From NCBI GenBank assembly GCA_965202585.1, contig OZ241831.1:37386001-37450000 (forward strand): 64,000 nucleotides of DNA, read 5' to 3'. This stretch comes from Thalia democratica (lineage: Eukaryota). Position numbers: made by a program. Below, piece after piece: positions 33,001 to 36,000 of the stretch; position 1 is the first letter of the stretch, and every line of letters starts with the position of its first letter.

Positions 33001-36000
33001 ACTAAACTAGCAACTATATATTTAATAAAATTATTTAATTTGCAGCATCAATAATAAAAAATGTATGAAAAAAAAATGCAGCTGAAAATTATTTGCTTAT
33101 TTTTCTAAACTAAAGATGCAGCTTTTTATTAAAAAATTTACAAGTCTATAAATGCTTAACTACAACATCTTAAAAATATACAATGGCGACAAAGGAATTA
33201 AAAAGGTATTTAGAATGAAGTAAAAATTCTTGCTACCAACATAACTAAATAAAATGTGAACACAATTACAAAAAGCTTAAAAAACTTACTTTTTATAGTT
33301 TGCATAGTTACATACATGTATAAAGTTTTAATATCTTAAGTGTTAACATTTTTAAGCTTAAGAAAAAAAAAACAGTTCAAGGTTTCTTGGTAAAAAATTG
33401 AACATGTTATACTTTGACCGTCTAAGTAAGATGTTATGTTATAAAGAATAAATAAATTAAAACTTTTTTAGCATTTAGTAATAATTATCTTTTTAGCTTT
33501 TATATTGATACTTTTGCTTTACCCTATCTCGCTTTGTTTACTTTTGTCTCCATGTGTTTTATGATTGCTCCTCAACTAGATTTTGTTGAACTAAAATCTG
33601 TGATGGACTCTTTCCATTGTTGCTGTTAGATTCCAAAACAGTCAATCCTAATAGTAAATACATAAATAAGATTCTGTAGCTTTCTAAGGTTTTAAATATA
33701 CTTTGTTTATTAATGAATTAAAACCAAGTTTTATAAAATCTAACTTTTTTGTATAAAACTGACTTAATGTTGTTGTAACAAAAAGTTTCTATTTTTAATG
33801 TTAAGATACATTAAACAACTTTTTCAAACTAACTCTGTTGGCAGTTCTGACTTTCATAAAAGTCGTAAGCAGACTCCATCGAATTGAACGATTGTACGGA
33901 TGAATGGGGACTCCTAGTGGCAGAAGTTTCCGGCAATCCCGGTTGAATTACGGGATACATATCAGTACTGTAATAAGCAGAACCGTACTGCTGCATCTGT
34001 GGGTGCTGGATGTAGCTGCTAGGTGGCGCAAGGGGTGGTTGGTGGTGAAAATTGTGAGCATCGTAAACTGATTGGTTGTAGCAGGAATTTGATGGCTGCA
34101 CTGAAGTAAAAGCTGATGATGCTTGAGTTGGCGACCCCTGTAAAAAATAAATTAAGTTGTCTCAAAAAATTTGCTATGAGTATAAAACACACTGTTAAGA
34201 TAAAAAGAACTTAAATTGTTATAAGTAAGTACATTTGTTGTCTTCCATAAATATTGAATTGACAAGACAATTATTCTATTTTGATTTGCTGTAACTAGTA
34301 AAAATACTGTTACTACACTTTGTTAGAAAAATTATTTGAAATTAGTTGAGTAAATTTACACACTTATTCGCCCGATGATTTTATAGGTGTCAACTGTTTA
34401 TTCACTGAAGATTTCGTGTTGGAACTACAAGATGTAAGATCTGGTGCAAGTCCGTAATAAGCTGTTTTCCATTCTTCCTCGATTTTCGGAGCAAAATATA
34501 ACGCGTTGTTCGGCTGGTGATTGTACCCGTTAAATGGTGTTGTGTATCCTTAAAAAACAGTTACAATTATTTTCATACCGCTAACTCTTAAATTTGTACT
34601 GATTATCGTAATTTAATTTTTCACGAAATAAGTGTAGGAAAATTACAACACCGAAAAGTTAGTAAATAAGAATTTAACTGAACTTAAGTTGTAAAAGTAT
34701 TTCTGTACAAACTGCAGTTACGCTTAATGTTGAAATTTTAAATTAGTTTTAAAGTATTAGTTTCTTACTATTTTTAGCACAGATATATTGTTACTTTTTC
34801 TTAATTTGCTTGTGCAAAATAAAAATTAGAAGGCGTAGTATTTTTTTAATTTTCAACCTCATTATATATAACATTACTAATTGAGGTTATATTTGATTAT
34901 AAATTGGAACTAACTAATTTGCGAGTTGAGTATTTCAGGTATCGAGTGAGTGTAGAACTGAGACTGACTCGAACTTTTCATCGTGGAAGAATGTGAAACG
35001 TTTTCGAATTTCTGCACAGAACTCTTCATCGACACCTGAGGAAAAATAAATCCTGAAGTGTCGTTTGCGCTGTACATCGAACTCGAGCTTTGATTGGTTG
35101 ATGGCTTAACATCAGTCTGATCGCATTTCTTCACTGCTTGCGGCGGGCTCTTTTTTGCTTTGTAATTAGGGTTGAGGGGGTTTTCGGGATGCAGCACATT
35201 GCCCACTTTGTTCCTCAAAATCCTGCTTATGGAGGAGACGGAGGGAACATTGAACTTGTCGCAAACCGTGTCGCTGAGCAACCGGTCCCTGATCTCCCAC
35301 GCGAATATGCCCGGGTCGCCCACCTTGTACTCTTTTATCTTTTCCACCACTTTCGGCGTGGTCACCCTCGGCTTGCTGCCCCCTATGGCGCCCGGCGCGA
35401 TGCTTCCGGTCTCGTTGAATCTGGCCAGGATCTTGCTGACGCAACCATGCGACACCCTCAGGTTTCGGCTGATGTCGCACGGTCGCACCCCCGTCTTGTG
35501 CAGTTCGATTATTTTCACTCGCATCTGGGTTGGCAGGGGTCGGCCGTTGACGAAAACTCCCCCCAATTGATTAACTTCCCCGTAGGAACTACCTGGGAAA
35601 TTAATAATAAATTACTTTTCAAACTTATGAAGAAAAAATTAAAAAGCAGGTTATACATATGACATAAGTTTACATTTGATAGGACTTTAGCTTTAAATTT
35701 TTTTTGTATTGTATAAACTAGTAGTATTTTATAAATTTATATACTTAAAATAGAAATAATTTTACTGAGTCGATTGCCTTAAGCCCCATTAAAGGTTTTA
35801 ATAATCTTTCGCAAATGTAAAGTTCAAAAGTAAAAGTAAATATGCTTTATTCAACTTAATTCTATAACTTTCAATTGTTTAGATTTTTAATTGATTAACC
35901 TTTGTACAGAAATTACACAAAATAAAAACATTATGAATTCATCATGATTTTTCGTCCAGAACGCCGTTAGTGCAAAAAATTTGTGTAATCGACAGTGAGG

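What the first reader, a model, noticed from the sequence alone, without database searches (positions are those of the whole stretch)
34938..35482. 545-bp identical tract between copies A and B inside the paired exon: probable gene conversion
The exon differs at only 7 positions, all synonymous: one at 34937 and six at or beyond 35483. Flanking intron differs at about 10% (~18 differences in ~180 bp by hand). Roughly 13 silent differences would be expected in this tract and none is seen, which protein-level selection alone cannot explain. This points to concerted evolution of the DNA-binding region while the C-terminal exons diverge (several amino-acid changes).
Basis: partly seen in the sequence, partly recalled or inferred. 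Interest (0 to 1): 0.65.

Follow-up and report, generated by a model that had tools for sequence, protein, structure and literature searches.

The report
Gene-conversion tract between tandem Pax genes
Two neighbouring copies of a Pax developmental regulator gene share a 545-base stretch with no differences at all, most likely because one copy recently overwrote the other, a well-known process in duplicated genes.

Summary
Window 34938-35482 and 57031-57575 are letter-for-letter identical over 545 bp. This is the longest identical run between two tandem copies, A and B, 22,093 bp apart. Both lie on the minus strand in the large exon of a Pax gene with a full paired domain (Pfam E 4.4e-64).

The exon differs at 7 sites, all third-position synonymous: 34937, and six from 35483 on. 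Introns differ at 286 of 2881 aligned sites, 9.9%. The tract has 118.3 synonymous sites; 11.7-17.8 differences are expected and none is seen. The contrast within the exon is 0 of 118 against 7 of 33, Fisher p = 1.4e-5.

Non-allelic gene conversion is the best explanation (about 0.6). The "DNA-binding region" framing does not hold. The tract covers 270 of the domain's 372 nt plus 275 nt of linker. Most of exons 3 and 4 are also identical, while the introns between them differ at 8.4%. Homogenisation is therefore restricted to exons.

I could not exclude synonymous constraint, a cDNA template or assembly homogenisation. No orthologues, reads or population data were available. This is a known kind of event, already suggested for the amphioxus Pax3/7 pair (PMC6010424).

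The parts
34938..35482 (-). Identical tract, copy A (545 bp; 181 whole codons, 118.3 synonymous sites, 0 differences)
   Evidence: String identity with 57031-57575. Longest identical run in the A/B alignment. Codon counts.
57031..57575 (-). Identical tract, copy B
34915..35592 (-). Exon 2 of copy A (678 bp, 51% G+C): paired domain, linker and an octapeptide-like motif (HSIPEIL) at its 3' end. Acceptor cag|GT; donor TTA|gttagt.
   Evidence: Pfam PF00292 PAX, E 4.4e-64, profile positions 2-125 of 125. PDB hits Pax5, Pax8, Prd and Pax6, E 1.9e-57 to 5.1e-52. Splice sites and reading frame.
57008..57685 (-). Exon 2 of copy B. Its protein is identical to copy A's over the 225 whole codons; 7 synonymous differences.
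35213..35584 (-). Part of exon 2 (copy A) that encodes the paired domain: 270 nt inside the tract, 102 nt outside it.
   Evidence: Pfam residues 10-133 of the ORF 34913-35611, converted to coordinates.
35483..35592 (-). 5' part of exon 2 that was not homogenised (36 codons, 27.7 synonymous sites, 6 synonymous differences, 0 non-synonymous). It marks the 5' edge of the tract inside the exon and inside the domain.
34406..34548 (-). Exon 3 of copy A (B: 56520-56662). The first 123 nt are identical. Three differences (1 synonymous, 2 non-synonymous) lie in the last 7 codons.
   Evidence: The exon ends are inferred from splice consensus and reading phase; no transcript data.
33829..34137 (-). Exon 4 of copy A with the stop codon (B: 56008-56316). 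The first 206 nt are identical. Six differences (2 synonymous, 4 non-synonymous) lie in the last 35 codons.
34549..34914 (-). Intron 2 of copy A, between the identical exon parts and not homogenised: 29 of 342 aligned sites differ, plus a 22-bp indel. The first differences are 20 bp from exon 2 and 4 bp (a 1-bp gap) and 26 bp from exon 3.
34138..34405 (-). Intron 3 of copy A, not homogenised: 17 of 203 aligned sites differ, plus a 64-bp indel.
37947..38037 (-). Tentative exon 1 of copy A (B: 60073-60163). ATG plus 30 codons, and the phase fits exon 2. There are 7 nt differences in 5 codons, all non-synonymous. At 7.7% this equals intron-level divergence, so coding status is unproven.
28342..42954 (.). 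Duplicated unit A (3' flank, gene, upstream region).
   Evidence: Self-BLAST blocks at 78-94% identity to unit B; MAFFT alignment.
49646..64000 (.). Duplicated unit B. It runs off the end of the window.
15790..20522 (.). Relic third unit C. Only the 3' flank and the tail of exon 4 survive (20377-20520, with two premature stops and a 9-bp deletion). Used as an outgroup.

Best explanation
The window holds an old tandem array in which two units, A and B, each keep an intact four-exon gene on the minus strand. The gene encodes a Pax transcription factor with a paired domain and an octapeptide-like motif, and no homeodomain was found (Pax1/9 / Pox meso type).

The 545-bp identical tract is the footprint of non-allelic (interlocus) gene conversion. 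A break or gap in one copy was repaired from the other copy, 22 kb away, and every silent difference in that stretch was erased. This happened recently compared with the roughly 10% divergence of the surrounding introns.

The 5' end of the event lies inside the exon and inside the paired box, between 35482 and 35483. The 3' end lies at or near the exon's donor side, at 34937.

The same process, once or repeatedly, has kept the first parts of exons 3 and 4 identical. The introns in between carry 8.4% mismatches and 22-bp and 64-bp indels. They have probably become too different for heteroduplex to form, and so stayed outside the exchange.

Shown: the identity, the synonymous nature of all exon 2 differences, the intron divergence, the contrast within the exon, and the exon-restricted pattern.

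Inferred: that conversion is the cause, that the template was DNA, and that intron divergence acts as the barrier.
For: 1. Exact identity over 545 bp, the longest run in about 14 kb of A/B alignment.

2. Silent sites are depleted. There are 0 differences in 118.3 synonymous sites, against 11.7-17.8 expected from intron divergence (P = 8e-6 to 2e-8). A region-wide permutation over silent sites reached the observed run in 4 of 20,000 shuffles.

3. The edge is sharp and lies inside one exon. The 36 codons upstream, which encode the most conserved start of the paired domain, carry 6 synonymous differences (6 of 27.7 sites). Synonymous sites of this gene can therefore change. Fisher tests: tract 0 of 118 against the rest of the exon 7 of 33, p = 1.4e-5; on codons, 0 of 181 against 7 of 44, p = 7e-6.

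4. Half of the tract (275 nt) encodes a linker that matches no Pfam domain. Identity does not follow protein constraint.

5. I found no support for an overlapping functional element. The predicted mRNA fold of the tract is ordinary (z = -1.05; 18 of 100 shuffles fold at least as well). Two antisense ORFs match no Pfam family. Rfam found nothing in the window.

6. A and B are true paralogues, not misplaced haplotypes. The spacers ahead of them (20526-28341 and 44168-49645) are only about 65-80% identical, and a degenerate third unit exists.

7. Divergence is layered, as expected under continuing homogenisation. With relic C as outgroup, A/B divergence is 101 of 882 at 31600-32632 and 84 of 1156 at 32633-33828, while A/C divergence is the same in both (290 of 882; 386 of 1156). 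Fisher p = 0.0014. It falls to 0 in the tract.

8. Literature (passages read). Conversion tracts much shorter than the duplicated block, and divergence that is higher at block edges, are described for Drosophila duplicates (PMC2588116). [quoted passage not shown]
Against: 1. There is only one assembly and two sequences. No orthologue, outgroup copy of this exon, polymorphism or read data could be used, so the classical proofs of conversion are missing. Relic C lacks exon 2.

2. Judged against the exons' own synonymous rate (10 of 382 degenerate third positions) the run is only moderately unusual, reached in 426 of 20,000 permutations. The depletion affects the whole central coding sequence, not this tract alone.

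3. Random DNA-level tracts should sometimes spill into introns. Here intron differences resume 4-26 bp from the three inner exon edges that adjoin identical exon sequence (exon 2 donor side, exon 3 acceptor side, exon 4 acceptor side). Introns 2 and 3 (46 of 545) are no less diverged than intron 1 (240 of 2336; p = 0.23). Selection on exon sequence or a spliced template would explain this more directly. The mismatch-barrier explanation is an inference.

4. No donor or direction can be named.
Confidence: 0.6

Rival explanations
1. Conversion templated by spliced RNA or cDNA. A reverse-transcribed or RNA copy of one paralogue's spliced transcript served as the repair template for the other copy. 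It homogenised a stretch that is continuous in the mRNA, from inside exon 2 (35482) to inside exon 4 (33932), about 917 nt, and skipped introns 2 and 3 exactly.
For: In transcript order, the segment 35482 to 33932 has 4 differences in about 917 nt (at 34937, 34425, 34421 and 34417). The two introns inside it differ at 46 of 545 sites and carry 22-bp and 64-bp indels. Silent sites: 2 of 295 degenerate third positions against 46 of 545 intron sites, Fisher p = 2.3e-7. The outer ends of the homogenised segment lie inside exons. At the inner exon edges that adjoin identical exon sequence, intron differences resume 4-26 bp away. A synonymous rate far below the intron rate is the criterion used to argue for cDNA donors in fungal ribosomal-protein paralogues (PMC6993855, section 'cDNA as the Probable Donor', passages read).
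Against: The same pattern arises if DNA-level conversion is blocked by diverged, indel-bearing introns, or if exon sequence is under selection. Three differences clustered within 9 nt at the end of exon 3 break the continuity. The 3' end of the transcript is not homogenised: 6 differences in the last 103 nt of the coding sequence and 38 of 499 in the 3' flank. The argument in the literature concerns very highly expressed genes, which a developmental regulator is not expected to be (my own knowledge). My search for the phrase 'RNA-mediated gene conversion' listed 4 papers, none on animal nuclear paralogues by title or abstract start.
Confidence: 0.12
2. No conversion. The tract and the central coding sequence are under strong constraint at the nucleotide level, as an ultraconserved or synonymous-constraint element in a developmental gene (for example an exonic enhancer or a splicing or RNA signal). 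Both copies simply kept the sequence they had when they duplicated.
For: Synonymous depletion extends beyond the tract to exons 3 and 4: 3 synonymous differences in 199 synonymous sites of the central coding sequence, against 19.7-27.8 expected. It stops at exon edges. A 137-bp identical non-coding block in intron 1 (36856-36992) shows that non-coding constraint, or some other cause of identity, exists at this locus. That developmental regulator genes are rich in ultraconserved and synonymously constrained stretches is recalled, not taken from a call.
Against: The start of the paired box, the most conserved protein segment, has 6 differences in 27.7 synonymous sites. That is at or above the neutral level (3.9 expected from the intron spectrum). 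Constraint would therefore have to begin abruptly in the middle of the domain. Half the tract encodes a linker with no domain. The predicted RNA structure is unremarkable (z = -1.05). There was no Rfam hit and no antisense protein family. G+C at third positions is alike inside the tract (0.67) and outside it (0.61), so I see no sign of a different codon-usage regime.
Confidence: 0.12
3. Assembly or polishing artefact. The two copies really differ inside the tract, but consensus polishing with multi-mapping reads, or a local collapse, wrote the same sequence into both.
For: Homogenisation of this sort strikes the most similar parts of paralogues, which here are the exons, so it would mimic the exon-restricted pattern. 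No reads were available to test this.
Against: The 12-18 erased differences expected in 545 bp amount to 2-3% divergence, enough for reads to map to the right copy (inference). The tract is flanked within 110 bp on one side and 60 bp on the other by densely diverged sequence that anchors longer reads. The edges are clean single-base transitions, and the 7 remaining exon differences were preserved.
Confidence: 0.07
4. Chance, or a locally low mutation rate, with no special process.
For: None beyond the fact that identical runs of about 75-96 bp occur by chance in this alignment. The mean longest run in permutations was 77.
Against: Poisson P = 8e-6 to 2e-8. Permutation: 4 of 20,000. G and C bases in the introns differ more often than A and T (15.0% against 8.1%), so this G+C-rich tract should diverge faster, not slower.
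Confidence: 0.02

Closest known systems
Interlocus (non-allelic) gene conversion between young tandem duplicates, as catalogued in Drosophila (Osada & Innan 2008, PMC2588116; review PMC3924837)
   Same: There is a short homogenised tract inside a much longer duplicated block. The history is mosaic along the block. Paralogue divergence rises toward the block edge: 18.5% in the far 3' flank against 7-10% near the gene. [quoted passage not shown]
   Different: That work shows conversion by trees with sister species. I have one genome only. The identity here is confined to exons, with the intervening introns untouched. The passages I read of those papers do not describe such a pattern.
Amphioxus tandem Pax3/7a and Pax3/7b (PMC6010424)
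   Same: It is a tandem pair of Pax genes in the same orientation, about 10 kb apart. Nucleotide conservation is very strong, with 100% amino-acid identity in the paired domain and octapeptide, and divergence at the N-terminus and in the C-terminal exons. [quoted passage not shown]
   Different: It is a different Pax group (Pax3/7, with a homeodomain) and a different phylum. There the linker diverged, whereas here the linker lies inside the identical tract. In the passage I read, conversion was offered as a possibility without a test on silent sites. Here silent sites were tested.
cDNA-donor gene conversion proposed for fungal ribosomal-protein paralogues (PMC6993855)
   Same: Synonymous divergence is far below intron divergence between paralogues, which is the criterion that paper uses. 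Here it is 2 of 295 against 46 of 545.
   Different: Those are highly expressed genes in fungi, some of them dispersed. This is a tandem pair of a developmental regulator in an animal. The pattern here is also compatible with conversion from DNA that is stopped by diverged introns.
Group I Pax genes (vertebrate Pax1/Pax9, Drosophila Pox meso), as defined in PMC12486386
   Same: Paired domain plus an octapeptide-like motif, and no homeodomain found in the modelled exons. That is the architecture the paper's Introduction gives for Group I.
   Different: The solved structures nearest in sequence are Pax5 and Pax8, and no Pax1/9 chain was among the 4 hits. The passages I read do not report a tandem pair of this group, and the paper's supplementary tables were not seen.

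Membership tests
Pax (paired-box) transcription factors | A complete paired DNA-binding domain | tested here: met
   Pfam PF00292, E 4.4e-64, 214.5 bits (cut-off 22), profile positions 2-125 of 125, residues 10-133 of the exon 2 ORF. PDB sequence hits to the paired domains of Pax5, Pax8, Prd and Pax6, E 1.9e-57 to 5.1e-52.
Group I Pax (Pax1/9, Pox meso) | An octapeptide motif is present | tested here: inconclusive
   The motif HSIPEIL sits at the 3' end of exon 2 in both copies. It resembles the H-S-I-x-x-I-L core of the octapeptides quoted in PMC12486386. No profile for the motif was available, so the match is by eye.
Group I Pax (Pax1/9, Pox meso) | No homeodomain | tested here: met
   Pfam found no family in the translations of exon 3, exon 4 or tentative exon 1 at E <= 0.01. 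tblastn and the ORF lists show no further coding block between the stop codon and the next unit. An undetected exon cannot be fully excluded without transcripts.
Group I Pax (Pax1/9, Pox meso) | Groups with Pax1/9 and Poxm in a paired-domain phylogeny | not testable with these tools
The assignment rests on architecture and on my recollection of paired-domain signatures.
Interlocus gene conversion | A tract with significantly fewer silent differences than the flanking paralogous sequence | tested here: met
   0 of 118.3 synonymous sites against 9.9% in the introns, and against 7 of 33 in the rest of the exon (Fisher p = 1.4e-5). Permutation: 4 of 20,000.
Interlocus gene conversion | Within the tract, paralogues in one species group together to the exclusion of their orthologues | not testable with these tools
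   No orthologous sequences could be fetched. Relic copy C lacks exon 2.
Interlocus gene conversion | Polymorphisms shared between the copies, or haplotypes that carry the unconverted state | not testable with these tools
   No population data.
Interlocus gene conversion | The identity is real in the DNA and not made by the assembly | not testable with these tools
   No reads. I can offer only indirect arguments.
cDNA/RNA-templated gene conversion | Synonymous divergence well below the divergence of the introns that lie between the same exons | tested here: met
   2 of 295 degenerate third positions against 46 of 545 sites in introns 2 and 3, p = 2.3e-7.
cDNA/RNA-templated gene conversion | A homogenised stretch that is continuous across exon junctions and ends exactly at intron borders | tested here: inconclusive
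   Intron differences resume 4-26 bp from the inner exon edges that adjoin identical exon sequence. However, 3 clustered differences interrupt the end of exon 3, and the same picture is expected if diverged introns block DNA heteroduplex.

The most novel reading that the evidence does not exclude
The homogenisation is one event, or a few, templated by spliced RNA or cDNA. It copied about 0.9 kb of mature transcript from one tandem Pax paralogue into the other, from inside exon 2 to inside exon 4, and left introns 2 and 3 at their old 8.4% divergence. That would be a clean footprint of transcript-templated repair or conversion in an animal germ line, at a developmental regulator that is not expected to be highly expressed.
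Probability: 0.12. Interest if true: 0.65.

Novelty: new member of a known kind. Interest (0 to 1): 0.3.

Why it matters
If it is real, this is a tidy, well-bounded example of concerted evolution in a developmental transcription factor. Both copies are forced to keep the same DNA-binding and linker sequence, while the extreme N- and C-termini, and presumably the regulatory DNA, are free to diverge. That bears on how the two copies can divide their roles.

It also has a practical consequence. Synonymous divergence of this pair would greatly underestimate the age of the duplication, and gene trees built from the paired box would wrongly suggest a recent, lineage-specific duplication.

The exon-restricted pattern is the more interesting part. 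With orthologues and long reads, this locus could tell apart conversion from DNA that is stopped by diverged introns, conversion from a spliced transcript, and nucleotide-level constraint.

The phenomenon itself is well known and has already been suggested for another tandem Pax pair.

Tried and rejected
1. Third copy of the paired exon as an outgroup. tblastn of the exon 2 translation against the window found only A and B. Relic C keeps only the tail of exon 4, so no three-sequence test was possible on the tract itself.

2. Overlapping element as the cause of identity. The RNA fold of the tract is ordinary (z = -1.05). Two antisense ORFs (35102-35659 and 35166-35567, plus strand) have no Pfam match. 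Rfam at gathering thresholds gave 0 matches and ARAGORN found 0 tRNAs. I dropped this as unsupported.

3. Misassembled haplotypes instead of paralogues. I rejected this because the spacers ahead of A and B are only about 65-80% identical and further degenerate units exist.

4. Codon-usage selection or biased conversion holding G+C-ending codons in place. G+C at third positions is 0.67 in the tract and 0.61 in the diverged 5' part. By my own population-genetic estimate, a force strong enough to hold that value would not lower the substitution rate much below the neutral rate. This is an inference, not a tool result.

5. CpG effects. There is no CpG depletion in the tract (37 observed, 36.2 expected).

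6. Polarising changes with relic C. In the exon 4 tail and just beyond it, 3 changes are derived in A, 3 in B and 1 is unresolved. Neither copy is clearly the degenerating one, and this gives no donor direction for the tract.

7. My first coordinates for exon 1 and exon 3 were wrong and were corrected.

8. Literature. A search for Pox meso with tandem duplication found 1 paper with no such pair in the passages I read. A search for the phrase 'RNA-mediated gene conversion' gave 4 papers, none on animal nuclear paralogues by listing. A five-term search on cDNA and exon-only conversion gave 4 papers, none relevant by listing.

9. Not done:
- The spliced model was examined exon by exon only.
- No search was made of the closed protein collections or of the viral or metagenome collections.
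- The bacterial and archaeal genome collection was not used, because it cannot hold this locus.
- No structure or complex prediction was run, because none bears on the question.
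Full report
**What is there.** The window is very A+T-rich: 20-29% G+C in 2-kb windows, rising to 36-38% at two places 22 kb apart. It contains no N, and I do not take it for human.

A self-comparison shows a tandem duplication. Unit A is about 28342-42954 and unit B is about 49646-64000. The blocks between them are 78-94% identical.

The G+C-rich islands are exons on the minus strand. The large exon is A 34915-35592 and B 57008-57685, 678 bp long. It encodes a complete paired domain: Pfam PF00292, E 4.4e-64, profile positions 2-125 of 125. 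The nearest solved structures by sequence are the paired domains of Pax5, Pax8, Prd and Pax6. After the domain come a linker with no Pfam match and the motif HSIPEIL at the exon's 3' end.

From splice consensus and reading phase I model two further coding exons:
- exon 3: A 34406-34548
- exon 4, with the stop codon: A 33829-34137

A tentative first exon lies at A 37947-38037. No homeodomain was found in any of these exons.

Paired domain plus octapeptide without homeodomain is the architecture given for Group I Pax genes (Pax1/9, Pox meso) in the Introduction of PMC12486386 (passages read). Assigning the gene to that group beyond its architecture rests on my recollection of paired-domain signatures, because no phylogeny could be made. 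I examined the spliced model exon by exon only.

**The observation.** It is correct to the base. Window 34938-35482 equals 57031-57575 over all 545 positions. This is the longest identical run in the A/B alignment; the next longest are 210, 137 and 126 bp.

The exon differs at seven positions: 34937, 35483, 35501, 35504, 35573, 35579 and 35588. All are third positions and all are synonymous.

- first 180 bp of intron 1: 18 of 179
- last 180 bp of intron 2: 15 of 179
- all three introns: 286 of 2881, 9.9%
- BLASTN over 4.7 kb, independently: 90.0% identity

**Is it more than chance or protein-level selection?** The tract has 181 whole codons and 118.3 synonymous sites. At the intron rate, 11.7 synonymous differences are expected. 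The introns show that G and C differ more often (15.0%) than A and T (8.1%). Applying that spectrum raises the expectation to 17.8. None is seen, giving Poisson P = 8e-6 and 2e-8.

The strongest test lies inside the exon. The 36 codons 5' of the tract carry 6 synonymous differences in 27.7 sites and no amino-acid change. The tract therefore shows 0 of 118, against 7 of 33 for the rest of the exon (Fisher p = 1.4e-5).

Shuffling all differences among 7371 silent sites of the 8.4-kb block reached the observed run in 4 of 20,000 trials. Against the exons' own synonymous sites alone the figure is 426 of 20,000. This shows that synonymous depletion is not limited to this tract.

**Where the tract sits.** The paired domain is encoded by 35213-35584. 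Only 270 of the domain's 372 nt are in the tract, and 275 nt of the tract encode the linker. Five of the seven differences fall in the first 102 nt of the domain, which is its most conserved part. The tract therefore follows neither the domain nor protein constraint, which argues against selection as its cause.

The DNA-binding region as such has not been homogenised, and the C-terminal exons are not generally diverged. The first 123 nt of exon 3 and the first 206 nt of exon 4 are identical. Amino-acid changes sit in three places:
- the last 7 codons of exon 3: 2 changes
- the last 35 codons of exon 4: 4 changes
- the tentative exon 1: 5 codons changed. Its 7.7% divergence equals the intron level, so it may not be coding.

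**The wider pattern.** In transcript order, the stretch from 35482 to 33932 (about 917 nt) holds four differences. Introns 2 and 3, which interrupt it, differ at 46 of 545 aligned sites and carry 22-bp and 64-bp indels.

For silent sites the contrast is 2 of 295 degenerate third positions against 46 of 545 intron sites (p = 2.3e-7). Intron differences resume 4-26 bp from the inner exon edges that adjoin identical exon sequence. Introns 2 and 3 are no less diverged than intron 1 (p = 0.23). Homogeneity is restricted to exons.

**History of the locus.** A degenerate third unit, C (15790-20522), aligns to the 3' flanks of A and B. It keeps only the tail of exon 4, with two premature stops and a 9-bp deletion. 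The spacer is present three times. The array is therefore old, and A and B are true paralogues rather than misplaced haplotypes.

With C as outgroup, A/B divergence falls toward the gene while the distance to C stays constant. A/B is 101 of 882 against 84 of 1156 in adjacent blocks, with A/C at 290 of 882 and 386 of 1156 (p = 0.0014). Overall, A/B divergence is 18.5% in the far flank, 7-10% around the gene and 0 in the tract. This layering is what repeated homogenisation would leave. It matches the raised divergence at block edges described for Drosophila duplicates (PMC2588116, passages).

**Mechanism.** I commit to non-allelic gene conversion between the two tandem copies, templated by DNA, with confidence about 0.6. 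Heteroduplex formed within the exon, where purifying selection keeps the copies about 97-98% alike. It erased an expected 12-18 silent differences. It ended inside the paired box on one side and near the donor site on the other.

The absence of any difference puts the 95% upper bound on the tract's synonymous divergence at 0.025. The event therefore falls in roughly the last quarter, or less, of the time recorded by the introns. That diverged, indel-bearing introns block the exchange is an inference from general knowledge of mismatch-dependent heteroduplex rejection. It is not shown here.

**Rivals.**
- Spliced RNA or cDNA as template (0.12). This explains the exon-exact pattern directly, and it is the criterion used for fungal ribosomal-protein paralogues (PMC6993855). 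However, three clustered differences interrupt exon 3, and the 3' end of the transcript is not homogenised.
- Nucleotide-level constraint without conversion (0.12). This would explain depletion across the coding sequence. It would have to begin abruptly in the middle of the domain, and it finds no support from RNA folding (z = -1.05), Rfam or the antisense ORFs.
- Polishing or assembly homogenisation (0.07). This cannot be tested without reads.
- Chance (0.02). The tests above reject it.

**Comparison with the known.** Gene conversion between tandem duplicates is textbook. A tandem Pax pair with a near-identical paired domain and diverged termini is described in amphioxus, and its authors suggest gene conversion (PMC6010424, Discussion passage).

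I found no report of a tandem pair of the Pax1/9 / Pox meso group:
- One search found 1 paper, and the passages I read from it mention none.
- One search found 3 papers. I read passages of two of them and saw the third only as a listing.
- The supplementary tables were not visible.

This is a new instance of a known process.

**What stayed unchecked.** I had no orthologues, other assemblies, reads, population data or transcripts. The classical proofs of conversion are therefore open.

Noticed in passing
window 15790-20522 (exon 4 remnant at 20377-20520, minus strand): A degenerate third unit of the tandem array. It aligns to the 3' flanks of A and B, with 23-52% mismatch across sub-regions. 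It keeps only the tail of the last exon (76% amino-acid identity over 51 residues), which has two CAG-to-TAG stops and a 9-bp deletion. The rest of the gene and its upstream region are missing. The inter-unit spacer occurs three times (about 11505-15789, 20526-28341 and 44168-49645). A stretch at 9053-9878 matches A's upstream region (41430-42211), which hints at a fourth unit that is also without a gene.
   Followed up: partly
window 36856-36992 and 58945-59081: A 137-bp block in intron 1 that is identical between the copies. It is the second-longest silent run in the alignment; the mean longest run in permutations was 77 and the 99.9th percentile 147. It contains a TGACGTAA motif and only a short ORF that ends in a stop. 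It could be a conserved regulatory element, an unrecognised non-coding exon or a second conversion patch.
   Followed up: partly
window 53980-54815: An 836-bp stretch present only in copy B. It sits exactly at A 32632/32633, the point where A/B identity rises from about 82% to about 94%. It may mark the edge of an older, larger homogenisation or a separate insertion.
   Followed up: no
window 61193-61490: A G+C-rich tandem array, 41-bp unit x 7.2 copies at 87% matches, lying within sequence upstream of the gene (about 61114-61550) that only copy B has.
   Followed up: no
window 20771-20926, 28285-28371, 5788-5838: Near-perfect palindromes of 156 bp (97%), 87 bp (92%) and about 51 bp (96%). The first two lie close to junctions of the repeat units, at the C deletion point and at the start of unit A. 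They may be foldback elements or breakpoint structures.
   Followed up: no
window 37947-38037 and 60073-60163: The candidate first exon differs at 7 nucleotides in 5 of 30 codons, all non-synonymous (0 synonymous in 18.5 sites). That is compatible with neutral drift of a stretch that may not be coding, or with rapid N-terminal divergence of the two proteins.
   Followed up: partly
window 4451-6050: G+C-richer islands (up to 41%) with short tandem repeats of 52-bp and 18-bp units at 4804-4932. No similarity to the Pax exons was found and no convincing ORF.
   Followed up: partly
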